The notes beneath the pieces were generated by a model. That model was given only the letters and a program-made list of their open reading frames with translations. It ran no database searches and was not told the DNA's origin. A stretch of 64,000 nucleotides of DNA, taken from positions 186,001 to 250,000 of the forward strand of contig QPGO01000105.1 of the NCBI GenBank assembly GCA_008632985.1. Direction: 5' to 3'. Made by a program: the position numbers and the translations under genes. This document shows positions 36,924-64,000 of the stretch, one piece after another (the first letter of the stretch is position 1; each line of letters starts with the position of its first letter). Source of the stretch: Psammoneis japonica. Its lineage: Eukaryota.

Positions 36924-39224
36924 TCACGACATAGACTTGTTGAGATAGCCATCGCGCAAAAGTCGACGCATTACCTTGTTGGACGCTGTACGCGGTAGCT
37001 TGTCGGTAATGACCACGTCACTAATCCCAAACAATGGATTCAGTTTGGTCTTGATGGAGAGTTGCATGGCCTTTTTTAAGGCATCCTTGTCCACGTCGTC
37101 ATTGCTTTCGTGGACGACGGCATAAATGACAAGCTTGCACGGTCCACCGCGGCTCACGGCAATGGCTGCCGTTTCCTGAACCACTTGTAGTAAATTGCAG
37201 ACGCGTTCAATTTCGACACTGCTTACTTTGATGCCACCGATATTCATGGTATCGTCGCAACGGCCGAGGGCCCTGTAATACGGAGAAGTAGAGAATTTGT
37301 CGCTTGAAACCATTTCAATTTCATCTCCATGTCGTCGTAGCACCTCGCCGTTGGGGCCCTTGCCCATGCCCTTGTAATAGGTATCATAGTGACTACGATT
37401 CAAGAGTTTAGTACTCAATCCAACCGACGGAGGCACGAGGCAAATCTCACCACTGACCGACAAGTTCGTTGTTATCTCGTTGTCGTCTACAAAGTCGCCG
37501 TCTGCATTACTTCTCAATACAAATTTGGATCCCAACACGGGCGAGGAGAACATGGATGGGACATTGGGCTGCACCATGGTGGACGATAAAAAGGAACCAC
37601 CAATTTCGGTTCCACCACAATACTCCATGACGGGCGCATAGCCCGGCACTCGAGACTGAAGCCAAAGGAAATTTTTGGCATCGCTCGCTTCACCCGTGGA
37701 TGAAAAGCGTGTAATGCAACTCCAATCACAACCGTCGGTAGCACCCTGTGCTTGCCACGCTTTGACGAGAGATGGAATGACGCCCAGCATGTTGACTTGG
37801 GATGCCTCGACAAACTCACAAAAGGGTGCCGTGCTGGTAACGCCGTTGAACAAGGCAATTGTGGCGCCATTGATGAGCTGGTAAATCAGCCAAGGGCCCT
37901 TGTATTGAATAGTATGAAAAGAACAACACCAAGAGGTGAGTAAGCGAACTGATTGGAAGAACCAAAACCGTGGCATACTCGCCAACCAAATAGAGATACA
38001 TTACCATCATCCATCCAATGTTACTCGGCCAACAAACAACCTCACCGGGGTGTACATCTTGATGATAATATCCATCCACGGCACACTTGATGGGTGTCGA
38101 ATGTGACCAAACAATGGCTTTGGTTCTCCCGTGGTACCACTCGAAAACAAAATGTTGCACGGCTCCATGCTATCCACCTTGATGGATGTAAATTCGTCAC
38201 TGCAATTTGCAATACAATCGGCAAAGGACATGTCTAGTCCGGGACGCAACGAAATGGACTCGTGCAAGTCTTTGCTTTGACGTGCCGCAAGACAAATGAC
38301 ATTCATGGACGACGACCACTGATCGTCGTCGCCACGGTCCGACTTGGTTTCCTTGTTTTCGTCATGCAAATCCTCCTCCTCCTCGTCGTCTTGCTGCATC
38401 AATATTTCATTGGCTTGTACGACACGGTCGTACAGTGGCAGAAATTTTGTGGTACCACGATAAATGACATCTTGTGTAAAGATGGCACGACACTTGGCGA
38501 GTCGACACCGTGTGGCAATTTCGCTTGCTGAAAAGGAATCGGCAATGGAAACCACGACACAACCCGCCTTTATGATTCCCAAGTAAATCGCCACCGCTTT
38601 GTACGTCATGGGCATGCAAATGCCAACCGCGTCACCATGCGTTAGTCCCAATTTAGTAATGGCATTTGCGACTTGATTGACGAGGGATTGCAATTGTCCC
38701 ATGGAAACTGTTTGTACGTTTCTTGGAGCGGATTCCGTGGCGTAGACAATTGCGGGTTGTTCGGAAGGATATTGGAGACAAGAATCCGATATATTGAAAC
38801 GTCCTTTTGGAAAGTAACTCATATCGGTAGCAATGTCTTCTCCCTCAAACGCAGTCAAGGGAGGCACGTCCCACTTGATGCCAATGGTTTGCATGGATTG
38901 CATCCAAAAGTCATTGCGCGACTCGACAGACCACTTGTAAAGCTCATGATAACTTGTAAAGCCATTCTTGATCATGGCTTGTTCAATGTTGGTAGTTTTC
39001 TTGTTGTTGTTGTTATTGTTTGGAATCCATGATGGAGCGATACTGTTGTTGTTGGAAGCATACACTTGTTGGTAGCACTGTTCATGAATTTCAATGGGAA
39101 TCGAGGGAGAAAGCAAGTCACGATGCAACACGGCCCACACCTCCATGGGAGTAGCAACGTCACTGCCACCGGCAAGCTCGCGTGCCTTGCGGACAAGGTC
39201 GTTGGCGCTCATGGTGGTTGCCAT
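36924..39224 (-). CDS. Acetyl/acyl-CoA synthetase (AMP-forming, plant AAE17/18-like); intron ~38004-37899; apparent 1-nt deletion near 38120
   Basis: ILFSSGTTGEPK, YCGGTEIGG, HGD, GRCDDTMNIGGIK, LPRTASNKVMRR. Confidence 0.9.
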
Positions 39225-40345
39225 GGTTGCTGTTTTTGTTCTGTTGTTGTAGTAGGAATATCCAATGCAACAGACAAGAACAACACAAGAAGGTTGCGTG
39301 GTCTCATTTTTTCTCACAAAAAATACGTGGCACTCAATTGGCTTTCTCGTTGAAATATTATTTAAATACTTGGATAAATATATTCACGTACAAATTCTAC
39401 ACGCGATCTTTGTATCATGTGACTTCTACTCGAGAGTGATACTACTGGATTTATGATTCTATTAGCCCATGTATGCAATTATTACTCACTTCTTGGAGGG
39501 AAAATCCACGCAATATACAAAAAATTCAGGTGCTGAAGAAGAGCATTGAAATTTCGAAAGCATAAACGCCTTTTCCTTCATCAGAATTTTGGCGACGAGC
39601 CAATGAGCAAACCAGCATCGACGCAAGTGACAATGACAACCACAGTATGAAACAACAATCATGACGACGACAACAAATACCACCAGTGACCTTCCGAAAC
39701 GGCAAAGAATACGAAGAAAAGAAGATCAGAGCACACTTTTCCTGTTTTGTTTGGCAGCCTTGGCCATGGTGTGCCACACGCATTGCATTCACAGGGCGGC
39801 TGTCAAGTTGTCGTCGCCGAGTAATGATTTGCATCTGAAATCCTTTCAAGCACCAAGAATACAAAACGAATCGACGAATCGAAAATTTACAATGGGACAA
39901 GTGCTGAAAGCTGCTGTTGCTGAAAAGAAAGAGAAAATGGCAAAAGAACAAACAGCACGGCAAAAACAGCAACAGCACACCGGTCAACCAACACCCGTAA
40001 ATGAGCTCATCACAATGTACCCAGACAAGAAAGAATTATTGGAGATTTTAAGAAACGCCGGAATCACAGAATTGGACGACGAGACGGCATTGAAACTTCC
40101 GACATGGTCCGACGTGACGGCACTCTATGGAACCAAACCCATCCTGTACGGATTGGATCAGTGCAAAGTATTCCGACAAAGAATCGACTTGTCCAAACGC
40201 CACTTGGGGATTGCCGGAACCTTCAATGCGGGTGCCAATCTCTTGTTTGAATTGCTCGAAGCCAATTGTCGTGGACCCCGGGGTCGCATGGCGGATCATC
40301 AAGTTCCGTGGGGTAAACACAATCCACCCCTCAATGAAACGATTC

Positions 40346-40636
40346 TGCCAAGTGGCGCCAAGTAATGGTATAAAGTGGCGTTGTAAAGTTGACTGTTGCT
40401 AATGTTGTGAGAAGAAATGAAAGAGATTCGGCTGCTCCGAAATCTCGTAGAATTAATGCTAAGAAACCGCGTAGAAATATAAAGAAACAATCTTTCGAGA
40501 GGCATCGAGATGTATCGAGAAAGGAGAAGAGGTTTCTAGAAAGTGTCATCGTTGACATCCTTTTGACACTTTTGACACCAGGTTGACACCCACGAATGAA
40601 TATACGAATGAATATAGATGACCGTGATATTCGGCA
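40346..40636 (-). repeat. 3' LTR
   Basis: 280/291 identical to 44331-44621 by manual alignment. Confidence 0.97.
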
Positions 40637-40657
40637 CTCGCTTCCCCAATTGAGACG

Positions 40658-43600
40658 TTAGAAGACAGGGTGAAGACGGCGGATATTGATACGTTCAGTG
40701 ACGTGAGGCGAGCGCTGGATGGTAACGGTTCCATTGGTATGGACACGTACGATACGGAAAGGACCATCTTTGGTGTTGAGTTTGCGTTGGATGTCTTTGG
40801 TCATAACGAAGACTTGATCGCCGATGTTGTAGTCGTAAGTAAGACGTTTTGCGTTTTCGCGGAGATTATTGCGTAGGACATCGCGCTTGCGACGGGTATT
40901 AATCATTTTCCAGTTCGCAAGATAAGTAGCAGAAATGACCATGTCTCGACCGAAGACAATTTGTCCGGGAGACGACATAAGGGCAGTATGGTAGGTACTG
41001 CGCAAGGCCCATGCAACGGATTGCAAAATTCCATGAATTGTGTCTTCATCATGATCGCGAGAAGGGAGATCCATCGCACGGAGAGAATCGGCTATCACTT
41101 GATGAATACGTTCAACGAACGCGTTGGCTTGAGGATTCTTGATTGTTGTAGGTTTCGGTTTAACACCATAACTGTAGAGGAGATCTGTAAACTCGGAAGT
41201 GAATTCGGAACCGTTGTCATAAATGACAATTTCTGGTCGCGGATAGCGACAAAACCACTCGCGATCGACGATAAGTGAAATGTCTTCGGACGTTTTGAAC
41301 TTATAGTTCGCGAGTTCGACCCAACGGGTTGCGACATCAATAATTGAAACGGCTCTGATTTTGCGATCGACACCATTTTTGTCGGTATACGTCCAGGGAC
41401 CGAAAAGATCGACTTGAGTTGCCTGCCAAGGTTTATAAGTAGTATCTGGAAGAGGTAATTCACCATAGTTTGCCGTAGTGCGCTTGGATTTGGAACACGT
41501 GCGGCACTTACGGACAAAAGTACGGACTTTCATCTGCATGTCGCGAATGTAAAAATGTGAAGCCAAAGTTTGGCAGGTGCGATTAGCACCAGGATGGCAG
41601 AGAGTTTCATGGTGCCACCGTAGAACTGCAGGAAAAAGCGTTGGAGGGAGGACAATCTTGTTCTTGTAAAGGATGATCTGTTTTCCGTTGAATGGTTCGG
41701 CTGAGTGGGATTCGGACTTGTCGAGTCGTTGCTGAAGAGCAGAATCTTTTTTCTGATGGTCGGCGATAATGTCGAAAGTAACGGGGAATATTGAAGGATC
41801 GATTTCCAACGAAGTCATTTCCTCGCAATCGCTTTGATCGACTTGGACAATGGGACAGCGACTCAAAAAATCAGCCACGACATTCTTGTGGCCTGGTGGG
41901 TGCTCGAAAGAGCAATCGCATTCCTCGAGAAGCAAACGCCAGCGTTTGACGCGTTCTGACTTGAATTTGTCAAATGTGAGATTTTTGTGATCGGCAAACA
42001 GGTAGCATCGATGACCAAAAAGGATGCTTTTGAAATTTTCGGTCGTTTCCACGAGCGACAGTGGCTCTTTTTCCATTGTCGTGTAGTTTCGTTGCGCTTG
42101 AGATAATTTTCGGCTGTAGAATGCAATTGGCCATTCGTCATCGTCAAAATCTTGAGTAATTGCTGCACCAAGTTGACAATCACTCGCATCCGGATAGATG
42201 TTGAAAGGTTGAGAGAAGTCGGGGAATCGGAGGAGGATTTCGCGCGCCGTGATTTTTTTCATCGGATGCCGTTCGAGACACTCGTTGAGTTTCCGTAAAT
42301 CGGATGAGAAACGGATGCCACCGCTTTTCTTCGATCGGAAAAGACAGGGTGCGCCCCAAGGAGAGTGAAGTTTGCGCGCAACAACATCGATTTTTTCCAA
42401 TTCATCCACTTCTTTGCGAGCCATGGGATGTGACGCTTGCGGAACAGTGTGAGCTTTCGCACAGTGTGGACGCGATCCTGGTTTCAGGGTCAAATGGACG
42501 GGTTTACCGGGTGCAGCTCCAAGTGTACCATCGAATAATTGCGGGTATCGTCCGAAGAGTTCGATGAGTTGGTGCTGTTGATCGTTGTCAAGGTGTTTGC
42601 AGCGTAGAACCATGTCGCGACAATTGTGCTTGTCGTACGCATTGCTCGTCATACCTCGAACCTGACGGTTGACGGCATTCTGGAAGAACTTGGGTAATTC
42701 AGCATCGCCGGGATGAATTGCATTAACTTCGACTTGGTCGAAAGAGCCCTTGGATCGCATGGATAGGGTAACATCGCCCCACGTGATTGTTTGATGTCGA
42801 AAATCAAAAACGAGTCCCATTTCTGTGGCGGTTTTTCTTCCGATGATAATGTCGTGTTTTCCTACGGCTTTGTCTTCCACACAAGCATCGACGGAAACCT
42901 TCTTGGACGATGCGAAGTCTGGGAACTTCAATGTCAGCGTCGCAATCTCGTGTAGATTAACGGCACTGTAACGGCCTTTAACGGGAACGTTACATTTACG
43001 GATTTTGTGAGGAATCCCGCGAAGGGCTGAGCGCTTCACAAAATTGCGATTTGCGCCGGTATCGAGCAGAGCAACACGGAACTTGTGCATTCCAGAATGA
43101 GTGTCAATCATCTGGACACGCGCTTCCGTGGTAAGATTGTCTTCTACTTCGGATTCGATGGAATCGTCTAGAAGAGACGTGACGTCTTCAAAAATGTCGT
43201 TGACATCGTCTGACGCGACGCTGTCGACATCGTTAGAAGCGGAGCGACTGGCTTTGGAGTCCACATTATTGTTTTCGACGTTCCGTGTGCGGCTCCGTGT
43301 AGGATAGCGGTGTGTCGGCTCGTTTCGAGAGTTATTTTGTTGATTCGGCGCATTCCGATTTGCGCGGTTCCGCTCATAATTTTCACGTTCACGACGGATG
43401 ATGTTGCACTCTTGACCGTTCGGATGTACAACGCCATGGATTGGACATGTTTGTTCACGATTGTTTTGATTCCTGTTCCTGGCATCGCGATTTTGGTCGT
43501 TATTCTGGCCGTGACGCGTGTGTCGACCGTTGTTGCGTTGATTCCTATTGTCATTGCGTCTGTTGTTGTCGGTAGACCCTTTGTCACCACGTCGTTCCAT

Positions 43601-44257
43601 ACGTCGGAGAGTCTCGTAGTGTTGAGCTTGGTCGTTCAAGTTTAAGTTGCGAAGACGGGCTTTAGTCTGAGTTTCGGCCCATGATCTTGGTCCACATTTT
43701 CGAAGGATTACGGATAATTCCGCTTCCGTGAATGACGGAACTCTTTCGGCGTCATCTTCGGTTGGCGTAGGCATGATATTAATCAACTTATTAAAGCGAC
43801 GGATGTCATTAACAAATGACTTGACAGTTTGGTTCCTGGGTTTCTTAAGGCTTTGAAGCCATTCCTTAGTATCAAGGGCAATTTCTCTATCCATGTATTG
43901 GAGTAGAAATTCTTCACGACAAGTATCGAATGTAACTTGGTCGCGGTTTTCGTAATCGTCTACGACGATTTCCCAGTCGTCTTTTGGTGTTCCGGTCATA
44001 AGTCTGGTCACGAGCCGGAAACGTGGCTGTCCTTCAGCCGTACCGAGATCGTTGATAAGTTCATCGAAGTTTGACCAGAAGGTAAGAACATCTTCCGGTT
44101 CAGTTGAAGCTAACTTACGTACCTCGATCGTAGTTTTAAGCCCATCTGGATCGTCAGGATCAATGGGGCTTTCAAAAGACACGAATTGGTCTTTGCGCCG
44201 CTCTTCCTCAGAGCGGTCAGGACGCTTAAGTTCGAATGGGCAGTTTTCTGCTGACAT
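40658..44257 (-). CDS. Gag-Pol polyprotein (protease, truncated RT, RNase H, integrase)
   Basis: LLDTGA; SPWGAP..DLRKLN; DAS..LGA, DHKNL, NVVADFLSR; zinc-finger HHCC, VDLFGP, YDNGSEF, NPQANAFVER; GPF. Confidence 0.93.
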   Translation of the reverse strand: MSAENCPFELKRPDRSEEERRKDQFVSFESPIDPDDPDGLKTTIEVRKLASTEPEDVLTFWSNFDELINDLGTAEGQPRFRLVTRLMTGTPKDDWEIVVDDYENRDQVTFDTCREEFLLQYMDREIALDTKEWLQSLKKPRNQTVKSFVNDIRRFNKLINIMPTPTEDDAERVPSFTEAELSVILRKCGPRSWAETQTKARLRNLNLNDQAQHYETLRRMERRGDKGSTDNNRRNDNRNQRNNGRHTRHGQNNDQNRDARNRNQNNREQTCPIHGVVHPNGQECNIIRRERENYERNRANRNAPNQQNNSRNEPTHRYPTRSRTRNVENNNVDSKASRSASNDVDSVASDDVNDIFEDVTSLLDDSIESEVEDNLTTEARVQMIDTHSGMHKFRVALLDTGANRNFVKRSALRGIPHKIRKCNVPVKGRYSAVNLHEIATLTLKFPDFASSKKVSVDACVEDKAVGKHDIIIGRKTATEMGLVFDFRHQTITWGDVTLSMRSKGSFDQVEVNAIHPGDAELPKFFQNAVNRQVRGMTSNAYDKHNCRDMVLRCKHLDNDQQHQLIELFGRYPQLFDGTLGAAPGKPVHLTLKPGSRPHCAKAHTVPQASHPMARKEVDELEKIDVVARKLHSPWGAPCLFRSKKSGGIRFSSDLRKLNECLERHPMKKITAREILLRFPDFSQPFNIYPDASDCQLGAAITQDFDDDEWPIAFYSRKLSQAQRNYTTMEKEPLSLVETTENFKSILFGHRCYLFADHKNLTFDKFKSERVKRWRLLLEECDCSFEHPPGHKNVVADFLSRCPIVQVDQSDCEEMTSLEIDPSIFPVTFDIIADHQKKDSALQQRLDKSESHSAEPFNGKQIILYKNKIVLPPTLFPAVLRWHHETLCHPGANRTCQTLASHFYIRDMQMKVRTFVRKCRTCSKSKRTTANYGELPLPDTTYKPWQATQVDLFGPWTYTDKNGVDRKIRAVSIIDVATRWVELANYKFKTSEDISLIVDREWFCRYPRPEIVIYDNGSEFTSEFTDLLYSYGVKPKPTTIKNPQANAFVERIHQVIADSLRAMDLPSRDHDEDTIHGILQSVAWALRSTYHTALMSSPGQIVFGRDMVISATYLANWKMINTRRKRDVLRNNLRENAKRLTYDYNIGDQVFVMTKDIQRKLNTKDGPFRIVRVHTNGTVTIQRSPHVTERINIRRLHPVF

Positions 44258-44330
44258 GTCTGGTCAGGACAATATGATCGGTAGACATATCTCAAGAGAG
44301 ATGAATAAGTGTTTGGGAGTAAATTTACTA

Positions 44331-44621
44331 TGCCAAGTGGCGCCAAGTAATAGCATAAAGTAGCGTTGTAAAGTTGACTGTTGCCAATGTTGTGAGAAGA
44401 AATGAAAGAGATTCGGCTGCTCCGAAATCTCGTAGAATTAACACTGAGAAACCGCGTAGAAATATAAAGAAACAATCTTTCGAGAGGCATCGAGATGTAT
44501 CGAGAAAGGAGAAGAGGTTTCTAGAAAGTGTCATCGTTGACATCCTTTTGACACTTTTGACACCAGGTTGACACCCACGAATGAACACACGAATGAATGT
44601 AGATGACCGTGATGTTCGGCA
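44331..44621 (-). repeat. 5' LTR
   Basis: Matches 40346-40636; followed on the + strand by TSD GATTC. Confidence 0.97.
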
Positions 44622-45871
44622 GATTCGTCTCCAACGAAAACCAAAGGGATACGAAGCATTTGACGATGTCAATGAAATCTTTCCAATCGTCACAATTCGT
44701 AATCCCTACTTTTGGATGAAGGCCATTTGTAAAAAGCCCTGTGCCGTACGATGGCTTCACGACAACAAGCTGCATTGTCCCAATCTCATTCCGACAAAAC
44801 AAGAATTGCAAAACAATCGTCGCTTTCAACCCAACCATCCTGTACGTGTCGGTGTTTGGTGTCAAAAGACATGGGTCATTCATCACGATTCCCTAGCACA
44901 CATGTGGAATGACATTCACGAATTCTACAAGAATCAAGTGTCCTTTCCCCGCGTCATGGTTCGAATGGAAGATTTGATCTTCTTTGCACCCCAAATCATT
45001 TCCGAGTTGTGCACGACCTGTGTCGGTGGGACGTTGTTGGATCCACAAAAATTTCAATACGCGACAACCAGTGCCAAACCCAAGCATTTCAAAAACGGTG
45101 CAACCGGTACCGGTTTGGTGGATGCCATGATCATGTACGGGAACGCATCACTTCAATGCGAGGGGCGTGCACGGGATGATTTGATGTTTGCAAACAAGAC
45201 GCTATCGAAAGAACTGATGGAGACATTTGGGTATCAGTACGTGCAAATATAGTAGAATTGGAATGAGTGTAAAGTATGAGAGAGCTGCTCCACAAGTCTA
45301 AATCATGGATACACCGTGTTTGTGTGTTTTTTTGGCTTGGCGCTTTGGAGTTGTGCCGCACCTCAAGTCGTTCTGTAGGGCCTAAGATGTGCATGCTTAA
45401 GAAGTATTTCCCCTATACTCTCTCTATGGAGCTAAAGTGGCTCTACTAGAATACTTCTGCTCTCTAGAGAGAATATAACAAAGCTATGGTCGTTTTCATT
45501 CGCGGGAACCGATCCAGATTGGAGATAACGGTAGAAGGCAGGACCGTCACACGACATGACGTCATAAACTACCGTTGATCCAAGACCAAACTTATAGTAA
45601 GTACGATTGAAAACGCGATCCAATTAGAGCATGGCGCTCACAATTTTTACTCAACGCATCGCAACGAATTTTTGGGAACCAACACCAAATCGAACAGCAC
45701 CGTACTGTAGGAAGAATTACGACACAAAGGAGCGAAGAAAAAGAAATTTCGAGATAGATACGCACTGTTCAGACACCAAGGGTTTCGGCATTTGTCCACT
45801 TCATTCATGCCAGTGTGTCTCCCGCAAAAGAAAAAGTGCGGCTGCCAAAACGTTCATTGTGACAAATCAAG

Positions 45872-46924
45872 ATGAAGAGAGGGCCTTTGCGCTCAATCCT
45901 TCATAGATTACCCTTCTGGTTGCTGGGAATAGAAGGCGTGTACCTTTTCTTTTTTAGTGCCCAATACAACGGTCTCTCTGTTTACTTCAATCAACAAGCG
46001 ACCGAGGCCAAGACGACAAGACGGGCACATCACATTCTAGACTGCGACGGTGAAGGTTCGGCATGCGCATATTTTTATCCAACTGAATTCTTTGAAAGTC
46101 CAAGTGGCTTGGGTTACAAACATCGAGCGGCCGCCCAACAACAGCTCTACGGTCATGCTACTCGGACCTTTGATGCTAATTGGATTCGGGCTCGAAACCG
46201 CTACAAACAACGCAACGAAACAGCATACCCGCCAAACGACTTTACATATATACACGTTAGGAAGGCCGGTGGAATGACCATGAAACAAACCTTTTGGAAG
46301 TTTCCGTATCGAGAGGTTGGAACAAATTACACGTCGGATCCAATTTACACCGCAAAGAGCCGATACCGCTTGGAACAAGTCGGAGAAGAAGCCTTCGTGT
46401 CGGAAATGAAAGAGCTTGCCGAATCAACCCTGTTCTTTACCTTTGTTCGAGATCCCTTTTCCCGCTTTCTTTCTGCCATGGGACAATTTGCATCTCGAAT
46501 CTTGTCATATGCAGAGCTGGACTGTCCTGAATTGAAGCATTTGAATACAAGTGACGTCAGGACGTATGCTCAACAGGAGATTCGGTGTGTACTGCGTAGC
46601 AAAAAGAAGGGAATAGAAGTCGATGAACATTTTGTGCTTGCAACACACGAAATGTATCAAATGATGTTTGGGACAAACGCAAAAGTGGCTGTTTTGCCCT
46701 TGGCAAACATTACCGACTTTATGGCTACGTTGCAGGTGTACAACTTACAAGTCAATGTTGCCAGGGGAGTAAAACTGAAGTACAAGAATGTTGACATATT
46801 GGAAGGCGACATGATTCGCGACATTTGTGAGATTTATGAACCGGACGTTCAAATGTTGCGAACGGTTGGTATCCCGGTTCCGCAGTGTGATGAGCATGTG
46901 CCAATTGTTCCTGCCAAGCAATAA
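45872..46924 (+). CDS. Sulfotransferase family protein (type II membrane)
   Basis: Signal anchor; YIHVRKAGGMT, FTFVRDPFSRFLSA, DEHF. Confidence 0.8.
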   Translation: MKRGPLRSILHRLPFWLLGIEGVYLFFFSAQYNGLSVYFNQQATEAKTTRRAHHILDCDGEGSACAYFYPTEFFESPSGLGYKHRAAAQQQLYGHATRTFDANWIRARNRYKQRNETAYPPNDFTYIHVRKAGGMTMKQTFWKFPYREVGTNYTSDPIYTAKSRYRLEQVGEEAFVSEMKELAESTLFFTFVRDPFSRFLSAMGQFASRILSYAELDCPELKHLNTSDVRTYAQQEIRCVLRSKKKGIEVDEHFVLATHEMYQMMFGTNAKVAVLPLANITDFMATLQVYNLQVNVARGVKLKYKNVDILEGDMIRDICEIYEPDVQMLRTVGIPVPQCDEHVPIVPAKQ

Positions 46925-49230: not shown

Positions 49231-51544
49231 ACATAGCTCAGAGTTTCTTTTGAGCTTGAAGATGGAGTTAACACCCTTTTTGTGTAGCTCTCTAGACTTT
49301 AGTAGGAAAATGATTGTACGTATTGCAATGCATGCAGCGCTCTGATTTACATTTTTGCAATGTGCTTTGGGCGCGTTAAGTCTCAGTAAGCTGCCTGACG
49401 TCGCCGATGCTTGCCGGTTACAAAAAGCTCAGAAAATGCAGAGCTGGGAGTGTGTCACTCTGACCCTTCTGTCATGATGCCATTTCTCTCCTTGCCAATG
49501 ACAAAACCAAGCGACACTTTTAGACCCTGTTGTTCCCTTTGAGAAGAAATGCAGCAGGAGCATTCTGAGTGCTTGCTTGACTTTTGTGTGTGTGTGCTGA
49601 AGATGTGATGATGCCTCTCTTGATTTTTTGGAATGAAATTGTCAACTCCTTTTGTGTGCACTGTACTTGGCTTCATCCATCATTGCAGATGATGTCAAAT
49701 GTCAATTGGAGCACTCTGGAGTTGAGATCTCATTCAAGGATTTGTGCTCTTCCATGATTCTGGCAAAGCCACCAAGCCCCTTCTTGTCTCATCAGAAAAT
49801 GCAGTGTGTTGTCAGCTGCTGCAGAGAGTGCAACAATTGCAGCAGGATCCAAGTTCCTTCCTGGCAGAAATCCTTTTGATGGCAGAAGTGCATTTTGCCT
49901 CAAAAGTTGGCCCAGTTGGAGCAGCTCTCTTTGGTTTTTTGTTCAAACAGTCTGCTTGCACCTGTGTTTGATGCACATCATTTTTCATCCAAGCTTTCTT
50001 CCCAAGTCAATTGCCATTTCCAGCAGTGGAGTCATTGCAGCTGAGTTTGCCAAGATCTTTCAAAATTTGGGCACAAAATGGCAAATCTCCACAAAGAGCT
50101 CTGTGACTTGGCTCCACAAAGTGCAGCTGATGAGAAGATCTTCTTGACGGGAGCACACAATGCCAATGTTGCACTTTTGTTTTCAATGAATTGCTTTTGC
50201 AAGCTTGTGAAGTTGAGTTGCTCAAACCTTTGCTCTGTTGAAGTGTGGCCTCATGTCAAACAAAAAAAGGTGATTGTTTGCCCTCACAGTTGTTTGTCCT
50301 TGAGAAATTGGCAGCGGTCAGGTGTGCCAGGCACTCACACATTTGCAGGGGTGGCACATGTGAGCCAATTTGTTTGGCATGGAGCTTGTTTTTGAGCATT
50401 GTCTCAGCAGCAACTTGTCATGAAATGCACACCAAGTGGCTGTCATTGGCGGTGCCAGACCAGGCAGATGTGCCAAGAGAGCAGCAAACAGCTGCCAGAA
50501 AAGCTGCCACAGCCAGGAAGCAGGCATCTTGAGCAAAGTTGTTTCCTTGCTTGCAGTGTCTGAAAATGAATTGTGAGCTGTGAGTGATCTCTGTGAGCAG
50601 AAAACCAGATTTCATCACATTCATGCCAAAGCACAGTGCCATGAGACCACAGACCAGCTTGGGCCAGGCTGAGTTTGAAAACTGAGAAGCTCAGGATGTG
50701 CTTGCATTGAGAAGCTCAAGTGCAACCTTCAAAGGTGAGGTGATGTTGAGAGCAGTTGTCATGAAGAAAAAGTGGCTGGTTTTTGTGTTTTGGGGGGCAT
50801 GGGCAGACTTGGTTGCTTTGCAAACAAGGCCTCATTCAGCACCTTCCCCCTGCTCTCTGCCCCAATGACAACAAGTGACCACAAAATGCTCTGCTGACAA
50901 ATGAAATGTGCCACTCCCAGAAACAAATCACACCATTGACCCTGCAAAGCTGAGAACCACCATGACTCCGGACAAGGGTTTGCAAGTGCCACAAATGAGC
51001 AGAAGGTCTCTTGGAAGGAGCAAACGTCATCTTCTTCTTTGTGAGCATGAGTGTCTTTGAGTGAGATGACTTTGGCAAAAGCACAATTTTTTCCATGAAT
51101 TTTTTAGGTCATGAGTGAGTTGTGGTTTGAGCTGGCATCTTAGAAGTGCTTTCAATGGGACAACAACCAAAGCACCAGCAATGACAGCACAGATGAGATT
51201 CATTTTCTGTTGCCTGGCACAAGAAACTTGGACTCCTGTCCCAGCACAAAGACTCAGCATTGTTTCTGTGCACACAACTTCCTTGATGATCTGTCCCATT
51301 GCAACACCTGGGACAAAAGTGACAGGAGGGCAGAACCATCTGGGCAAAGATTCAGTTCTGCAGAAGTTTGTGCCAGCTTTTTGTGCAAGGCAAATGCACA
51401 TTGTGGAGAGTTGGAAATCTGACAGACAACAATGACAACATCAGAGCAACACATGTGCATGCATGCCACGTGCCAATCCAGTCATTGAAAACTCCAAAAC
51501 AAAAGATCTTTCTTGCAGTTCTCATGATTTCTCCACGAGAAGCA

Positions 51545-52320
51545 CAGTTGAAAAAAGACAATGAAGATTGCCAATCTTGTTCTCATTCTTGTCACCACTG
51601 GACCTTCTCAAACAATGAGAAAACATTGTGGTGCTGTTCTCCTGTCAAAAGAGCAGCACATTGAGAACCTGAATCATGTTGCCAATGGCGCTGCCACCAG
51701 CCAAGGACTGTGATGACCACAATGCACTGCGCATCATTGTGAGGACCATGACCAAGATGACCCTGGCACATGTTGATGGTGCCATGAAGGCAGACAACTC
51801 ATGTGGGCCTGGCAATGACAATGTTGCCTTTGACTCCTTGAGTGCTGGTGACCCTGATGGCGTGCAAATTGTGTTGTTGAAAAGGAGTGGAAGAACCAAT
51901 CCCTGTCAAGAAGGGCAGTCTTGTTGCACTTCCTGGCACCAAGTTCCACCATCACATGGTTGTGAACAGTGGCTCAGTGAAGATCACTGGCCCCTTGGTT
52001 TGCAAAAGCATGTGCTCATCATCTGGCTAAAACCACTGACACAGGAGGTGGCAATTTTTTTGTTGGCTTGTTTTCAACATCAGAAAGTGCCAGCTGCTGC
52101 TGGCATGGCTTTGGCTCTGCAGCAGACTGAGCAAAAAGGTCAATGTTGCCAAGAAGGACAATGCCATCACCTTGGAAGAGTGAGTGCAGCTCAGAGCATC
52201 CATTGCAAACAGCCTGAAGATGGAGGCAACATTTTTGTTGAGTGGCTCCTGCAAACATTGGCAGGAAACTGATTGCAAGGTGTGTTGCAAAGCAGCAATC
52301 TGATTTGCACTGCAATGTTT
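51545..52320 (+). pseudogene. Hypermutated duplicate of the 48469-49230 gene
   Basis: gacaatgaagattgccaatctt, catgttgatggtgccatgaaggc and ccctgtcaagaagggcagtcttgtt are collinear with the intact gene. Confidence 0.92.
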
Positions 52321-55300: not shown

Positions 55301-55469
55301 AGCAAAGCCCCCACGCACATGATGCAACCTGTTTTGCAGGAGCAAGGGTTTGCTGAGAACCACAAGAGATGAGCTTCTGGGGCAAAAACCTTCATTTGCA
55401 GATGAAAACACTCACACATGTGTGCACTGTGTGAGTGCACACTGCCTCATGCTGCAGCTGATAAGTTCT

Positions 55470-55470
55470 C

Positions 55471-55503
<33 letters not shown>
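55470..55503 (+). repeat. (CAG)n microsatellite
   Basis: Direct reading. Confidence 0.9.
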
Positions 55504-56163: not shown

Positions 56164-59100
56164 ATGACAACACCCCCTAAAACAAAACGCCGTCGTTCGA
56201 AAAAGAGAATACACAATTTACTCCTCGCGTTCATCTTGGGAGCCATTGCCTTGCTCCTGTTTACAGACTCTCTTCATAATGTTGCCTTGCAAAAAATGTC
56301 TACGCACTCGGATCATGTTTCGTTTGAACCACCTCCCAAAAAAGAGGCATCCAAGGAACGTATTGTACAACTCTTAAATCAAGTCGGTGTCCAACATGTT
56401 TCTCCAGAAGTACTCGAGAAATTACCAGCATGGTCCTCTGTACGAAAATTATACGGCGACGGACCACGCATTTATGGCTTAGATACACAATGCCGTGCCT
56501 TTCGAGATCATGTTCCGGCCGCCAAACGTCATGTGGTGTGGCGGGGACGTTTAATTCCGGCACAGATTTGCTCGATAAGCTACTCGTGACAATTGTGTGT
56601 TGCATCAAGCCGACGGTCAAGCACGAAAGTTTGGTATCAAGGTCAAGTCCCGTGGGGCAAACACAATCCTCCGCGTGTGGCACGAAACTCGACTGTAATA
56701 AGCAAGGGTGCCGATACCTACTTGACGGTTGTGACCATTCGAGACCCTACTTTTGGATCAAGGGCATGTGCAAAAAACGCTATGCGGCGTCTTGGAAAAA
56801 TAATACATTACGGCCGTGTCCGAATTTACTAGACGAACACAATAACAAACCCAATCAAGTCAAGGTCAGGCACAACAAGACTTGGACGGAACGTTATGAT
56901 TCTCTTGTGCACATGTGGAATGATTGGTATAACGAATATCGGTTGGAAACGAAATTTCCGCGTATTATAGTTCGCATGGAGGATGTGATTTTTCGTCCTA
57001 CCGAAACCCTCCAACAAATTTGTTCCTGTGCCGGTGGGACACTTCGCAAAAACTTTTCATTTCCACTCACAAGTGCCAAGGACTATCAACATGACGAGAA
57101 TTCGACCGATATCAGCGTGACTGGATTTTTGGATGCTCTGATTCAGTACGGCAATGTCACGGCGCGATTGGATGGATTTACAAAGGAGGATTTGGATTTT
57201 GCCAAGTCCAATCTCGATGCAACGTTACTGCATGAATTTGCCTATGGCAAAAACAAGCCCTTGAAGCAAAAATTGCCCGACCCCGAAAAGGGACGCTTGC
57301 CGAGTTGCTGGATTATTTCTCTAAAGATGGCTTGACCCTTGCGGAATTGCCAACGTGGACCAACATTACGTCTCGTTATGGACACGGACCCGTATGGAAT
57401 GGCAATCGACATTGCCAGTCGTTTCGAAAAGAGGGACAGCAGCACATTGCCGTGGTGGGTCTCAATCACAGTGGAGTGAATCGGTTGCAATCGTTGCTTG
57501 TTCAGAATTGTAAAGTCGACTCGGAAATAATAGTGGTGGGCGAACCCAATCAAGAATTATCTGCCTTGCCAATTGTCACGATTCGAGATCCGTACGTGTG
57601 GATCGAGGCCCAGAACAAGCAGGGTTCTGATTCGTCCTTGTTGTCAAATACTTGGAATCAACATGTGGAAGACTACTTGAAACAAACGAGCCTCGTTGTT
57701 CGCATGGAGGATGTCTTGTTTTATTCTGCCGAGACGATTCGAAATCTTTGCGAGTGCATGGAGGCAACATGACCGAGCCGTTTCAGTACGCTACTGGGGT
57801 TGATCAAGATGTATTTTCCTATGGTGCAAAACATTTGTGGGATGGTTCTGCGCAAGAGGAGATTCGTTCAATCTTTTCAAAACTCAACAAGGAGACAGTA
57901 ACCAAGTTTCGATACGACAGGGTCTTGCGCAACGACGAAATTGGTGTAGAGGAACCACGTGGTGATGATGGCGACAGCGAAAAAGAACCAATCAACAATG
58001 CAAAAGAATCAACTCCTATTAAGCAGCCACCAAATTCAACAAAATCGCTCAAAGAACTTTCACGATGGTTCCCCGACAAGAAACGTTTGCTAGATATCCT
58101 GAAGGACTCGGGCATGACGGAATTGGACATTGCGACAACCGCCAAGCTTCCCACTTGGTCTCAAGTAGCTGCGCTCTATGGAGACGAGCCTCGTTTCTAT
58201 GGATTGGATCAGTGCGAGGTGTTTCGAAACAAGATTGAACGTGAAAAGCGCCACTTGTCCATTGCGGGGACCTTCAATTCGGGCACCAACCTGTTGTTTT
58301 CCTTGCTCGAAGTGAATTGTGAGGCACCCCGGAACATGATTGATTTTCAAGTACCGTGGGGAAAGCACAATCCAGCTACCAATGAAACGAGGCTGCATCT
58401 TCGATCCGCCACCAAGGGTGATGTTTACTCTCATGTCGACGACATCTTTCCGGTTGTTACGATTCGGGATCCGTATTTTTGGATGAAGAGCATGTGCAGC
58501 AAACCGTATGCGGTTCGTTGGCCTCACAGAAACGGCCATTGTCCCAATCTCATTCCTACACCGCTGGAACTCGAGCATAATACGCAATTTCAAAAGGACA
58601 AGCCGATACCGATTGGTGTGTGGTACAATAAAACATGGGTCGTTCACCACGATTCGTTGGCGCACATGTGGAGTGACTGGAACGACTTGTACAAGAGTCA
58701 AGCGACTTTTCCGCGTGTCATGGTTCGAATGGAGGACGTTATCTTTCACGCACCAAAGACTATCGAAACGATCTGTAGCTGCGTAGGCGGAACGATGAGA
58801 ACGGGACGCGGAACCCACAAGCAATTCAGATATGCCGTGAACTCTGCAAAGCCTAGTCATTTTAGGAATGAATATTCCAAAGGTACGGGATTGCTAGACG
58901 CCATGATTCGGTACGGAAACGCTACGCTTCGGTTGGATGGCTACACACCGGAGGACCGTGCGTTGGCTAACAATACGTTGCTTCCGGACTTGATGAAGAC
59001 GTTTGGATATCGGCAAGATCTGGGTCCGGAATCGACTAACCTCGAGACGAGTAGACCCACCCCCGTCGAAACGCCTCGTACTAATCTCGATAGCAAACCA

Positions 59101-62100
59101 AGGAAAACCGTCAAGGAGCTAGTGTCAATGTATCCTGACAAGAAACGTTTGATTGACATTTTGGAAAGTGCAGGACTGTCTGACGCTATTGACGAAGATA
59201 TTGTCCAACAGCTTCCAACGTGGTCTATGGTAACTGAAATGTATGGCAGTCGGCCCCGCATCATTGGTTTAGATCAGTGTGCGGCATTCCGGGAAAAGAT
59301 TGAACCTGAGTACCGGCACCTTGGCGTTGCTGGTACCTTTAACACAGGGACCAACATGTTTTATCAGCTGTTGCAGGCCAACTGTGAAACATCGGAAACG
59401 AGCAAAGATCACGGTATATTTTGGCAAGTGCCCTGGGGTAAGCATAACCCGCCAGTGAATGAAACCTTTCGATGGAAACAGAGATCAAAAGCAACACAGC
59501 ATTTCAAGAACACCGCTCTGTGGTTTACCGCAACAACGGTTCGTAATCCCTACTTCTGGATGAAAAGCATGTGTAAAAAGAATTATGGAATAAGATGGCC
59601 ACACGCCGATGCTCATTGCCCCAACCTCATTGCCGATCAACGCGATAAAGCCGTCAGTAAAGATCTGGAGATGCAGAAGCCAGTTCCTGTGAAGATACAC
59701 TACCAAAAGGACTGGATAGTGCCGTACGAATCGCTGGTGCACGTATGGAATGATTTTCACGCATTGTATCTCAAGGACAAGAGCTTTCCACACATCATGG
59801 TGCGCATGGAGGATTTGATTTTCCATGCCAAGGCAACCATTGCAGTTGTCTGTTCCTGTGTGGGCGGTAGAATAAAAGACCCAAAGAATTTTCAGTATCC
59901 CGTCGAAAGTGCCAAAGCTGATCACTTCAAGAACGGCACCGTTGGTCATGGTCTTTTGCATGCCATGATTCACGCTGGTAATGCGACGTACCAACGCGAA
60001 GGTTTCTCTTCAGACGATCTCAGTTACACCCAGTCAGTTTTGGATCCGGATTTGATGGAAGAATTTGGGTATGGCATTGTACACGAAGAGCGCAAGCCTG
60101 CCCCTGAAACTGCACTTGATTCGGAGCCTGACGACGAGAAAGTTGTCGTCAAGGGACCTACCAATCTCACAATAGAGCTAGCGTCGCTGTATCCCGAAAA
60201 GAGACGTCTCATTGAGATATTAGAGGATGCAGGATTGGCTCACGAGGTAGACAAGGACGTGGTCCAGCAACTTCCAACAGCGTCCGATGTATCCGCGATG
60301 TATGGAGTTCGGCCCCGGATTTTGGGCTTGGAACACTGCGAGGCCTTTCGCAAAACAGTACCCATGGACAGCCGTCGTCTTGGCATTGCGGGAACCTTCA
60401 ACACGGGTACCAATTTGCTCTACAACCTTTTGGAAGCGAATTGCGAAGTGACGCGAGCACGTAAGGATCGCGGAATCATGTGGCAAGTGCCCTGGGGAAA
60501 GCACAACCCGCCCATGAATGAAACCTTCCGGTGGGAATTCAAAACAAAAGGAACGGAGCGTTTCAAAAATCTTACTGAATGGTTACCGGCCGTGACGGTG
60601 CGGGATCCGTACTTTTGGATGAAGAGCATGTGTCGAAAGCCGTACAATGTTCTATGGGAAGCGTCCAAGGATCGTTGCCCGAACCTGGTTGATACTAATA
60701 CCAGCAATTCCATTCCTGTCCAGGTTCATTACCTCAAGAATTGGGTCGTCGAGCACGAGTCCCTTGCCCACTTTTGGGATGACTTCTACTCCCTATATGC
60801 GAATAATCAGAGCTATCCACACATTTTGGTACGTATGGAGGATTTGATTTATCGCGCTCCAGAAACCGTTGACATCATGTGCGACTGCATCGGAGGCAAG
60901 CTGAAGGGCGATTTCCGCTATGCGACCGAAAGCGCCAAGGCGAACCACTTCAAGAACGGAGCTGTTGGCACTGGATTCTTGAAGGCATTGCTTCAGTACG
61001 GAAATGCGACTCTTCGGAGAGAAGGTTATTGGCCTGAGGATCTCGCGTTTGCCAACAAGGTGTTGCAGCCAGAATTGATGCAGAAGCTTGGATATTCCAT
61101 TTTAAAAGAGGACGTGGAGAACGCTTCTTCTGAGGCTACCGAGAAGAAAGCAGTAAAGAGGCATCTCACTGTTGAGAACAAGACGAATGTTGTTGTCAAG
61201 GGCCCTACGAATCTCACGAAAGAGCTAGCGGCGTTGTATCCGGAAAAGAGACGTCTCATTGGGATATTAGAGGATGCAGGATTGGCTCTCGAGGTGGATA
61301 AAGACGTGGTCCAACAACTTCCAACGGCGTCCGAGGTGTCCGCAATGTACGGAGACAAACCTCAAGTTTTGGGCTTGGAGTACTGCAAGGCCTTTCGCGA
61401 AACCGTACCCGTGGACAGCCGTCGACTTGGCGTTGCCGGTACCTTCAACACGGGTACCAATTTGCTGTACAACCTTTTGGAAGTGAATTGCGAAGTGACG
61501 CAAGTACGTAGGGACCGAGGAATCATGTGGCAAGTGCCGTGGGGAAAGCACAACCCGCCCATGAATGAAACGTTTCGTTGGGAATACAAAACAAGAGGCA
61601 CGGAGAATTTGAAGAACATTACGGAATGGTTACCGGCCGTGACGGTGCGGGATCCGTACTTTTGGATGAAGAGCATGTGTCGAAAGCCGTACAGTGTTTC
61701 ATGGCATAAGTCCAAGGATCGTTGTCCGAACTTGCTTGATACTAGCATCAGCAACAAGTCCATCCCTGTCGATGTAAAATACAACAAGAATTGGGTTGTC
61801 AACATGAGTCCCTTGCCCACTTCTGGGATGATTTCTACTCCCTATATGTGAATGATCAAAGCTTTCCACACATTTTGGTACGTATGGAGGATTTGATTTA
61901 TCACGCTCCAGAAACCATTGATATCATGTGCGACTGCGTCGGAGGCAAGAAGAAGGGAGATTTCAAGTATGCGGTCGAAAGTGCCAAGGCGGATCACTTC
62001 GAGAAAGGAGCTGTCGGCACTGGATTCATGAAGGCCATGCTTGAGTACGGAAATGCGACGCGTCAAAGGAAGGTTACTGGCCTGACGATCTCGCGTTTGC

Positions 62101-64000
62101 CAACAAGGTGTTGCAGCCAGAATTGATGCAGAAGCTTGGATATTCCATTTTAAAAGAGGACGTGGAGAACGCTTCTTCTGAGGCTACCGAGAAGAAAACA
62201 GTAAAGAGGCATCTCACTGTTGAGAACAAGACGGATGTTGTTGTCAAGGACCCTACGAATCTCACGAAAGAGCTAGCGGCGTTGTATCCGGAAAAGAGAC
62301 GTCTCATTGGGATATTGGAGGATGCAGGATTGGCTCTCGAGGTGGATAAAGACGTAGTCCAACAACTTCCTATGGCGTCCGAGGTTTCCGCAATGTACGG
62401 AGACAAACCTCGAGTTTTGGGTTTGGAGTACTGCAATGCCTTTCGCAAAACCGTACCCGTGGACAGCCGTCGACTTGGCGTTGCCGGTACCTTCAACACG
62501 GGTACCAATTTGCTCTACAACCTTTTGGAAGCGAATTGCGAAGTGACGCAAGTACGTAGGGACCGCGGAATCATGTGGCAAGTGCCGTGGGGAAAGCACA
62601 ACCCGCCCATGAATGAAACGTTTCGTTGGGAATACAAAACAAGAGGCACGGAGAATTTGAAGAACATTACGGAATGGTTACCGGCCGTGACGGTGCGGGA
62701 TCCGTACTTTTGGATGAAGAGCATGTGTCGAAAGCCGTACAGTGTTTCATGGCATAAGTCCAAGGATCGTTGTCCGAACTTGCTTGATACTAGCATCAGC
62801 AACAAGTCCATCCCTGTCCAGGTAAAATACAACAAGAATTGGGTTGTCAAACATGAGTCCCTTGCCCACTTCTGGGATGATTTCTACTCCCTTTATGTGA
62901 ATGATCAAAGCTTTCCACACATTTTGGTACGTATGGAGGATTTGATTTATCACGCTCCAGAAACCATTGATATCATGTGCGACTGCGTCGGAGGCAAGAA
63001 GAAGGGAGATTTCAAGTATGCGGTCGACAGCGCCAAGGCGGATCACTTCGAGAAAGGAGCTGTCGGCACTGGATTCATGAAGGCAATGCTTGACTATGGA
63101 AATGCGACGCGTCAAAGGGAAGGTTACTGGCCTGACGATCTCGCGTTCGCCAACAAGGTGTTGCAGCCAGAATTGATGCAGAAGCTTGGATATTCCCTCT
63201 TGAAAGATGACGCGGAGAATAACACAGCAAGAAGTCATCTCGCTGTTGAGAACAAGACGGATGTTGTTGTCAAGGGCCCTACGAATCTCACGAAAGAGCT
63301 AGCGTCATTGTTTCCCGAAAAGAAGCGTCTCATTGAGATTTTGGAGGATGCAGGATTGGCTGAAGCTGTCGACACGGACGTTGTCGAGCAACTTCCAACT
63401 TGGTCCACGATAGTTGAACTGTACGGAGACAAGCCTCGCGTTTTGGGCTTGGAGCACTGCGAGCACTATCGCGAAATGGTGCACTTCGACAGGCGTCACC
63501 TTGGCGTTGCCGGTACCTTCAACACGGGTACCAATTTGCTCTTCAACCATTTGCAAGCTAATTGCGAAGTGTCGAAAGCGCGTAATCACGCCGGTATTAT
63601 TTGGCAAGTGCCCTGGGGAAAGCATAACCCGCCCCTAAATGAAACCATGCGTTTGGAATTTAGACCAAAAGGAATGGAGATCTACAAAAATGTTACGGAA
63701 TGGCTGCCGGTAGTCACGGTGCGGGATCCTTACTTTTGGATGAAGAGCGTTTGCAAAAAGCCATATGCATTAAGGTGGCCACGTAAGGAAGCTCATTGTC
63801 CCAATCTCATTGCTAATCGGCATGATCTGAATGTCAGTCGTGAGCTAGAGTTGCTCAAGCCGGTCCCAGTCAAGGCACACTACCTAAAGCACTGGATCAT
63901 TCCGTTTGATTCGCTGGCGCACTTTTGGAATGATTTTCATGAACGGTACCTCCATGAAAGCAGCTTTCCACGAATCATGGTGCGCATGGAGGATTTGATT
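56164..64000 (+). CDS. Giant type II membrane protein with at least 8 tandem sulfotransferase-like domains, incomplete at the window end (several 1-nt frameshifts)
   Basis: N-terminal TM; repeated AGTFN(S/T)GTN, WQVPWGKHNP, VT(I/V)RDPYFW, CPNL and VRMED units. Confidence 0.8.

What the first reader, a model, noticed from the sequence alone, without database searches (positions are those of the whole stretch)
39661..45252. TpA mutation appears to spread from the retroelement into the interrupted host gene
Seen: relative to paralogous units at 58-64 kb, the host gene has GTFNAGAN (ggtgcc) vs G-T-N (ggtacc in several units), KKPCAVRW vs KPYAVRW, and GVWCQKTW vs GVWYNKTW, within a few hundred bp of the LTRs. 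Inference: leakage into flanking DNA, analogous to RIP leakage or heterochromatin spreading. The insertion is clean (TSD GATTC; frame restored on removal).
Basis: partly seen in the sequence, partly recalled or inferred. Interest (0 to 1): 0.7.

Follow-up and report, generated by a model that had tools for sequence, protein, structure and literature searches.

The report
TA-erasing mutation hits transposon-broken allele
In this probably diatom genome, a mutation process that turns TA into TG or CA in jumping genes has also rewritten the host gene copy that a retrotransposon landed in, while the uninterrupted copy keeps TA at six of those sites, so the process works on patches of chromosome and not only on the invader.

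Summary
Confirmed, with a correction. A Ty3/gypsy element (LTRs 40346-40636 and 44331-44621, TSD GATTC) splits a sulfotransferase-like gene; removal restores a 436-aa frame. The same sample holds the empty-site allele. All 6 listed allele differences within 741 bp of the LTRs are TG/CA here and TA there (including KPC/KPY); 0 of 10 farther ones are of this type. A sister copy repeats the effect: 18 of 24 TA lost in a delta-carbonic-anhydrase gene within 1 kb, 0 of 102 beyond. It is not a gradient from the element: hits form a flat patch over LTR and gene, spare 750 bp inside each LTR, are absent at three other insertions, and also occur in a duplicate with no element beside it. Best reading: strand-symmetric A-to-G editing at TpA in silenced patches; enzyme unknown. 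Signature matches a 2026 Bigelowiella preprint, which does not mention flanks or diatoms; opposite to RIP. This scan noted the same leak at other loci of this genome.

The parts
39661..40345 (+). 5' part of the interrupted host gene (sulfotransferase-like family; ends in the first TSD copy)
   Evidence: ORF and paralog alignment; fold of paralog unit 1 ranks sulfotransferases on top, best E 0.012
40341..40345 (+). target-site duplication GATTC, left copy
   Evidence: empty-site joint 40340>44622 with 5 letters fitting both sides
40346..40636 (-). 3' LTR of the Ty3/gypsy element (TG...CA, 291 bp)
   Evidence: polypurine tract next to it
40637..40647 (-). polypurine tract
   Evidence: sequence
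40658..44263 (-). gag-pol frame of 1201 aa (gag-like, RNase H, integrase); about 620 bp of the RT region present in sister copies is missing near 42267
   Evidence: loose end at 42267
44331..44621 (-). 5' LTR; differs from the 3' LTR at 11 positions, 9 plainly TA vs TG/CA and 2 forming one TG vs CA pair
   Evidence: the run's majority letter at 40458 is A
44622..44626 (+). target-site duplication GATTC, right copy
44627..45252 (+). 3' part of the interrupted host gene
39605..39605 (+). TG here, TA in the other allele (741 bp from LTR, upstream of ATG)
39732..39734 (+). two CA steps here, TA in the other allele (614 and 612 bp from LTR)
40228..40234 (+). two TG steps giving N-A-G-A-N where homologues have N-T/S-G-T-N; allele state unresolved
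   Evidence: contig 39833-40328 shows no difference
44741..44741 (+). TGT (Cys) here, TAT (Tyr) in the other allele; Tyr in 137 of 138 homologues
44861..44861 (+). TGT (Cys) where homologues mostly have Tyr; allele state unresolved
   Evidence: not listed as a difference
45287..45287 (+). TG here, TA in the other allele (666 bp from LTR, after the stop)
45355..45355 (+). TG here, TA in the other allele (734 bp from LTR); outermost listed hit on the right
39300..39500 (.). TA-rich stretch between the divergent acetyl-CoA synthetase gene and the host gene (10 TA per 100 bp); left limit of the patch
   Evidence: only non-TA differences listed at 39467-39477 (39300-39385 not covered by a listed contig)
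45372..45620 (.). TA-rich stretch downstream of the gene (23 TA in 250 bp), no TA difference listed; right limit of the patch
58033..64000 (+). tandem paralog units used as outgroup (six units, the last running past the window end)

Best explanation
The element inserted into one allele of a diploid cell line. Afterwards a chromosomal mutator that changes the A of TpA to G on either strand (about twice as often in TAC/TAT as in TAA/TAG) acted on patches of about 0.7-1 kb. Here the patch covers each LTR and the adjoining body of the dead allele and stops at the TA-rich stretches that flank the gene. SHOWN: direction of change, restriction to TpA, both strands equally, action after insertion (LTR pairs; two TSDs of sister copies), action on single-copy host DNA of the element-bearing haplotype only, patchiness and sharp ends. 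INFERRED: that the patch is defined by silent chromatin set up by the insertion (or by loss of the gene's transcription) and bounded by neighbouring active promoter/terminator DNA; that the chemistry is deamination of adenine by a TadA/ADAT-type enzyme followed by replication (I give this chemistry about 0.5 on its own).
For: Polarity: among aligned copies (each half of the element covered by up to 14-16 copies) minority letters are TA>TG/CA at 456 of 5145 opportunities against 125 of 28453 for other A>G, 97 of 9478 for CG>TG/CA and 39 of 7407 for TG>TA; 129 of 143 columns holding both TG and CA also hold TA, only 7 hold CG. Empty allele: joint 40340>44622 at depth 28.2 against 48-65 for flanking contigs; 6 of 6 listed differences within 741 bp restore TA, 0 of 10 at 869-1746 bp (p=1.2e-4). 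Replicate: C122 vs empty copy C84, 18 of 24 TA lost within 1 kb, 0 of 102 at 1-3 kb, 0 lost in the empty copy over 0-3 kb (p=5e-17). TSD mismatches in sister copies: 2 of 3 are TA-type. Strand symmetry after context: TAC 0.187 vs 0.198, TAT 0.208 vs 0.207. Each LTR's TA count follows its own flank (rho 0.58, n=29, p=0.001; within-element differences rho 0.65, n=13, p=0.015), while flank and element interior are uncorrelated. Deaminase-family genes exist, one TadA/ADAT2-like.
Against: No chromatin, methylation or expression data were available, so the silencing step is untested. GAN and WC sites unresolved; 64 of 104 difference rows were not shown, among them 4 of the 7 differences of the contig over 44622-46500. 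Per-TA enrichment depends on the cut: p=0.0005 at 750 bp, 0.04 at 1 kb, 1.0 at 500 bp. No leak at the ADH insertion (0 of 23 TA in 800 bp), none above background beside the C1 copy, none clear at C38, where a coding part cut off by the element keeps normal TA counts. At C122 a second, 1.9-kb TIR element also separates the gene from its promoter. The LTR-flank correlation is partly driven by copies that sit in old TA-free blocks, where the direction may be flank to LTR. ADAT2-like genes are expected in any eukaryote for tRNA editing (recalled), so their presence is weak evidence.
Confidence: 0.6

Rival explanations
1. RIP-like leakage: the mutator recognises the repeat itself and runs outward from the element with falling intensity.
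For: Hits are on the element-bearing haplotype only and end 740-880 bp from the LTR at two loci; LTRs are themselves repeats and are hit; RIP leakage into single-copy DNA is described in fungi (PMC9453070, passages).
Against: No decay with distance (5 of 6 verified hits at 612-741 bp; delta-CA bins 1/1, 3/3, 4/5, 7/8, 3/7, then 0). The delta-CA flank (18 of 24) is hit far harder than its LTR (3 of 18) and the repeat DNA inside it (0 of 39). Pooled flank TA o/e is flat: 0.53, 0.49, 0.49, 0.58, 0.56, 0.50.
Confidence: 0.15
2. The gene was already decaying (silent or redundant beside its paralog array) and was hit before or independently of the insertion; the element only landed in dispensable DNA.
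For: The contigs of the run carry G at 40228, 40234 and 44861, which would follow if both alleles had them. A tandem duplicate at 12271-14300 lost TA 28 times against 4 in its twin with no insertion in the aligned peak region, so an adjacent element is not required.
Against: All 6 listed differences run one way (p=0.03), none shows a loss on the empty allele; the same one-sidedness at delta-CA (18 vs 0). Contigs collapse heterozygous sites to one letter, so 2 of 7 site clusters showing the window's letter is what a coin toss gives (inference from how the tool describes contigs).
Confidence: 0.12
3. Same targeting, other chemistry: a modified adenine or thymine laid down in silent DNA, or an error-prone repair tract, yields A:T>G:C at TpA without a deaminase.
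For: Strand symmetry and a minor parallel CG loss (3 of 54 CG at delta-CA; 97 of 9478 in the element) suit a mark on double-stranded DNA; tract-like patches suit repair tracts.
Against: Nearly pure A>G transitions (456 A>G, 1 A>T, 0 A>C at TpA) and the TAY preference fit an enzyme reading neighbours; the Bigelowiella authors favour deamination, also without proof.
Confidence: 0.3
4. Relaxed selection on a dead allele with ordinary mutation, or chance.
For: The allele is dead once the element is in it.
Against: Ordinary allele differences nearby are 0 of 10 TA-type, those in the patch 6 of 6; three of the six lie outside the coding frame; 18 of 24 TA lost at delta-CA cannot come from background.
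Confidence: 0.03
5. Assembly artefact: modified adenines miscalled as G by long reads in methylated regions.
For: At the six sites the run's contigs show only TA; the library type of assembly and run is not on record.
Against: The same run's contigs carry the derived G at 40228, 40234 and 44861 and TG/CA swaps inside the element at depth 617 (41674-5, 41693-4); depth book-keeping points to two haplotype contigs over 39773-39832.
Confidence: 0.04

Closest known systems
TpA-restricted A:T>G:C hypermutation of integrated NCLDV and virophage DNA in Bigelowiella natans (bioRxiv 10.64898/2026.01.13.699255; read parts 1-3 of 5, abstract to conclusion, plus a term search; methods not read in full, supplements not seen)
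   Same: TpA>TpG and TpA>CpA, confined to regions, nearly pure transitions; authors suspect an ADAT-type deaminase and note TE-like domains among TpA-poor genes.
   Different: Different lineage (here probably a diatom); targets here are LTR elements and single-copy host genes; patches of about 1 kb rather than 25-186 kb; allele-specific. The words flank, leak, spread, border and diatom do not occur in that paper's main text, though it extends one region by about 21 kb on the basis of mutation rate.
Repeat-induced point mutation (RIP) of ascomycetes and its leakage into single-copy DNA (PMC9453070, passages seen)
   Same: Dinucleotide-specific transitions on chromosomal DNA of repeats that also reach neighbouring unique genes.
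   Different: RIP is C-to-T and premeiotic and creates TpA (recalled); here TpA is destroyed by A-to-G. No distance gradient here, and repeat DNA next to the hit flank is spared.
Deamination of methylated CpG in silenced transposons (recalled)
   Same: Also yields TG/CA, goes with silencing, and is present here at low level.
   Different: Starts from CG: rate 1.0% against 8.9% for TA; TG/CA columns trace to TA in 129 of 143 cases.
ADAR / APOBEC editing of retroelement RNA or cDNA before integration (discussed; otherwise recalled)
   Same: A-to-G with a 5' T/U neighbour resembles the ADAR preference.
   Different: Would mark one strand, leave the two LTRs alike and never touch host DNA; here both strands are equal, LTR pairs differ and host genes are hit.

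Membership tests
Bigelowiella-type TpA hypermutation | A:T>G:C transitions almost only at TpA | tested here: met
   456 of 5145 at TpA vs 125 of 28453 at other A; 1 transversion at TpA
Bigelowiella-type TpA hypermutation | Both outcomes, TpG and CpA (both strands) | tested here: met
   equal rates per strand after context; 12 TG and 6 CA at delta-CA
Bigelowiella-type TpA hypermutation | Confined to regions, with ordinary spectrum elsewhere | tested here: met
   0 of 10 TA-type differences beyond 860 bp; 0 of 102 TA lost at 1-3 kb
Bigelowiella-type TpA hypermutation | Target is integrated viral DNA | tested here: not met
   targets here are a Ty3/gypsy element and host genes; the preprint itself suggests transposons as further targets
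Bigelowiella-type TpA hypermutation | Arises during clonal growth at about 1000-fold the background rate, in some lines only | not testable with these tools
   needs mutation-accumulation lines
Bigelowiella-type TpA hypermutation | ADAT2-like candidate enzyme | tested here: inconclusive
   9 PF00383 matches, one TadA/ADAT2-like with HAE...PCxxC; no link to the mutations shown
RIP | C-to-T change | tested here: not met
   TG>TA 39 of 7407 vs TA>TG 456 of 5145; conserved Tyr and the empty allele fix the direction
RIP | Leaks into adjacent single-copy DNA | tested here: met
   single copy in the assembly for this gene
RIP | Triggered by sequence duplication | tested here: inconclusive
   repeats are hit, but repeat DNA inside the LTRs is spared while unique flank is hit
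RIP | Premeiotic timing, RID-type methyltransferase | not tested
   no search for such genes; timing cannot be read from sequence
Pre-integration RNA/cDNA editing (ADAR, APOBEC) | One-strand bias and no change in host flanks | tested here: not met
Ty3/gypsy LTR retrotransposon | Paired LTRs TG...CA, 5-bp TSD, PPT, RNase H before integrase | tested here: met
Ty3/gypsy LTR retrotransposon | Complete reverse transcriptase | tested here: not met
   no RVT family hit; about 620 bp shorter than sister copies; so a non-autonomous copy
PAPS-dependent sulfotransferases (host gene) | Sulfotransferase fold and N-terminal PAPS-binding loop | tested here: inconclusive
   model pLDDT 93; top Foldseek ranks nearly all sulfotransferases but best E 0.012, TM about 0.35-0.4; no PDB sequence hit; Pfam hit in 1 of 10 homologues at E 0.024. 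That G-x-F-N-T-G-T-N is the PAPS loop is recalled, not tested

The most novel reading that the evidence does not exclude
Diatoms have a DNA-level adenine-editing defence, running opposite to RIP, that is aimed by chromatin state or by the hemizygous insertion junction and not by sequence repetition: it edits an LTR together with the host gene body beside it up to the next active promoter or terminator, in diploid cells and on one allele only, and so makes transposon-hit alleles irreversibly dead. It would be shared with a rhizarian alga and thus old or repeatedly evolved.
Probability: 0.35. Interest if true: 0.85.

Novelty: new variant of a known kind. Interest (0 to 1): 0.66.

Why it matters
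A targeted A-to-G mutator on chromosomal DNA has been reported once, for viral inserts in Bigelowiella, with no enzyme and no targeting rule. Hemizygous insertions with an intact sister allele give an internal control and turn the targeting rule into a testable question: the allele pair dates the hits, gives their direction and maps the edge of the patch to within about 100 bp. The pattern here (unique host DNA hit harder than the repeat beside it, sharp ends at gene limits) argues for targeting by chromatin domain rather than by homology. It also means that insertions in this genome can carry a local burst of Tyr>Cys/His and Thr>Ala changes into host genes, which matters for reading diatom gene families and pseudogenes, and it points to a natural DNA adenine editor if the deaminase reading holds.

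Tried and rejected
Empty-site allele in the assembly: not found for this gene. Allele or orthologue in the protein collection: none closer than 42%. No RNA holder listed, which says nothing on expression. Run X3 laid nothing; X2 laid 4 records, one of depth 2.2 over 45042-45198 with 5 differences that were not displayed: not used. Paralog DNA asymmetry alone: too weak at about 70% identity. Search for empty copies of 8 other flanks: useful for 2 (C122/C84, C186/C316); C1, C35 and C199 flanks are repeats, C308 and C9 have no second copy, C38 only a 78% paralog. ADH locus: 0 of 23 TA lost, but the two copies are identical for 756 bp and then about 5% apart, so the insertion may be very young or the tract homogenised. 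C38: 13 vs 7 against the paralog, not significant by eye, not counted as leak. Older relatives (C263, C161, C233, C218, C69, C163) lie wholly or on one side in TA-free blocks, so flanks tell little. Strand bias from transcription: apparent CA>TG excess vanished after context control. RIP polarity and CpG decay as main cause: rejected. The 21.5-22 kb TA-poor patch: paralogs too diverged or not aligned there. Rows dropped: copy L030 (88.7%) left out; C263 and C161 left out of site calling; C126 left flank dropped as a duplicate of C125 (TSD count); 12 of 150 homologues longer than 620 aa left out; three misaligned columns at the start of the 3' half ignored (first 20 codons cut). Literature: searches found no paper on TpA>TpG/CpA in diatoms or on its reach into host genes; the library lacks most subscription papers, and except for the two papers named only listings were seen.


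Full report
Anatomy. The finding spans a host gene split by an LTR retrotransposon. The two LTRs (40346-40636, 44331-44621) are 291 bp, begin TG and end CA, and are flanked by GATTC on both sides; without the element and one TSD the gene reads 436 codons from 39661 to a stop at 45252. The element lies on the minus strand with a 1201-aa frame carrying gag-like, RNase H and integrase domains in Ty3/gypsy order and is about 620 bp shorter in the RT region than 13 or more sister copies of 94-98% identity. The host gene belongs to a large family (1627 representatives at E up to 0.001) with six tandem paralog units from 58 kb; a confident model of unit 1 ranks sulfotransferases on top, though no match is significant. 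That the organism is a diatom is inferred from a delta-carbonic-anhydrase family and from earlier notes of this scan; no call names it.

The mutational process is real and its direction is fixed. Across aligned copies, minority letters are TA>TG/CA at 456 of 5145 opportunities (8.9%), other A>G at 125 of 28453, CG>TG/CA at 97 of 9478, and TG>TA (the RIP direction) at 39 of 7407. Of 143 columns where some copies read TG and others CA, 129 also hold TA and 7 hold CG. LTR pairs, identical at insertion, differ mostly at TA steps (9 plain cases plus one TG/CA pair of 11 differences here). Rates are the same on both strands once the next base is allowed for, and about twice as high in TAC/TAT as in TAA/TAG. 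So the change happens in chromosomal DNA after insertion, not in RNA or cDNA.

All are in the sequence, 112-240 bp from an LTR, and none occurs in 134-138 homologues; a fourth, 40228, has the same form. Counting rare residues that one TA-type change would explain gives 5 of 107 conserved columns in the host halves and 3 of 607 in the paralog units.

The empty-site allele. It is not in the assembly but is in the one sample that holds this DNA (it may be the source of the assembly): a contig joins 40340 to 44622 at depth 28.2, about half of the 48-65 of flanking contigs, and the flanking contigs end at the junctions, so the insertion is on one of two alleles. Listed differences within 741 bp of the LTRs are 39605, 39732, 39734, 44741, 45287 and 45355; in all six the window has TG or CA and the contig TA, and 44741 turns KPC back into KPY. 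The ten listed differences at 869-1746 bp are an ordinary mix with no TA-type change (p=1.2e-4). Limits: contigs keep one letter at most heterozygous sites, and 64 of 104 rows were not shown, including 4 of 7 differences of the contig over 44622-46500. At 40228, 40234 and 44861 the contigs read as the window does, so these sites are either collapsed or shared by both alleles. The per-TA enrichment is p=0.0005 with a 750-bp cut, 0.04 at 1 kb and nil at 500 bp, because most verified hits lie at 612-741 bp.

An independent locus. A sister copy on contig C122 sits just before a delta-carbonic-anhydrase frame. Contig C84 holds the same region without the element, 98.4% identical and colinear on both sides. 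Within 1 kb the element-bearing copy has lost 18 of 24 TA (12 TG, 6 CA, from 151 to 876 bp) and 3 of 54 CG; at 1-3 kb it has lost 0 of 102 TA; the empty copy has lost none over these 3 kb. At most sites six paralogs side with the empty copy; at three (1611, 1917, 2139 in L048) they read C like the element copy, so direction there is less sure. Two of three TSD mismatches among 13 sister copies with matching ends are TA-type, which dates those host-DNA changes after insertion.

What does not fit simple spreading. TA content over 30 flanks (one duplicated) is flat with distance. At an ADH gene with an empty copy 0 of 23 TA are lost in 800 bp; the C1 left flank and the C38 right flank show background only. 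In the window's element the LTR bins have lost 14 of 40 TA sites while the 750 bp inside each have lost 2 of 80; at C122 the LTR has lost 3 of 18, the DNA inside it 0 of 39, and the unique gene beside it 18 of 24. An LTR's TA count follows its own flank (rho 0.58, n=29), also between the two ends of one element (rho 0.65, n=13), and flank and interior are unrelated; part of this comes from copies inside old TA-free blocks. At both positive loci hits stop before TA-rich intergenic DNA that shows no loss. Finally a tandem duplicate at 12271-14300 has lost TA 28 times against 4 in its twin, with no insertion in the aligned peak region (no outgroup). The unit of mutation is thus a patch of about 1 kb defined by position, which may take in an LTR and the dead gene beside it.

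Mechanism. Most likely the insertion silences the allele, and an enzyme that converts the A of TpA to a G-reading base works on silent DNA of both strands until it meets active promoter or terminator DNA. Signature, timing, allele specificity and patch shape are shown; silencing and chemistry are inferred. The genome has nine matches to the deaminase family, one TadA/ADAT2-like and one in a frame with a 2OG-Fe(II) oxygenase; nothing ties them to the mutations.

Comparison. The signature is that of the TpA hypermutation measured in Bigelowiella natans, whose text does not mention flanks, leaks or diatoms (supplements not seen and could hold boundary data). It works like RIP leakage but fails the RIP test on the base change. 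Four searches found no paper on this process in diatoms or on its reach into host genes. Earlier notes of this scan describe the process and the leak at other loci of the same genome; they are unchecked and are not counted as support. What this locus adds is an empty-allele control, a replicate, negative loci and the finding that the profile is a plateau that skips the element's interior.

Verdict. Observation confirmed; interpretation partly supported; new variant of a recently described kind; interest 0.66.

Noticed in passing
window 12271-14300 vs 7455-9500: Tandem duplicate (4.8-kb period) in which the second copy has lost TA 28 times against 4, peaking at 14076-14138, with no element beside it.
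   Followed up: partly
window 501-6000, 21500-22000, 32000-33200, 49500-55800: Blocks with almost no TA and reduced CG, with edges sharp to about 100-200 bp: the end state of the process.
   Followed up: partly
L048:1461-2340 (G000:C122) vs L049 (G000:C84): Delta carbonic anhydrase allele beside a sister element with most Tyr codons turned to Cys; a TA-rich 1.9-kb element with terminal inverted repeats lies between promoter and LTR element.
   Followed up: yes
L021 and L022 (G000:C126, C125): Two copies of the element share an identical 1500-bp left flank but have different right flanks; C126 lacks a matching TSD. Recombination between copies or an assembly join.
   Followed up: no
sister copies L002-L029: Many flanks have open frames running up to the junction (e.g. 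ADH at C186, PC-esterase at C38), suggesting frequent recent insertions into genes.
   Followed up: partly
element positions about 1000-3750 of 4276: The middle of the element has lost TA in most copies (mean 0.26-0.61 per bin) while the ends are mostly spared (0.13-0.22); unexplained.
   Followed up: partly
L089:313-1785 (G000:C79): One frame holds a deaminase domain (HAE...PCxxC) and a 2OG-Fe(II) oxygenase; exon structure not checked.
   Followed up: no
window 57631-64000 and L033: Array of at least six sulfotransferase-like units in one long frame with a frameshift near 61800; upstream units at 56125-57772 look broken.
   Followed up: partly
window 45154-45159: CAA TGC where homologues have Arg at the first codon: may be CG loss inside the patch; not verified.
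   Followed up: no
window 39773-39832: Gap between listed contigs whose depth fits two separate haplotype contigs; the stretch is rich in TG/CA and may hold further hits.
   Followed up: partly
window 6241-7413, 45863-46924, 16722-17759, 36924-39383: Neighbouring genes: Sulfotransfer_2 proteins, a sterol methyltransferase and an acetyl-CoA synthetase.
   Followed up: no
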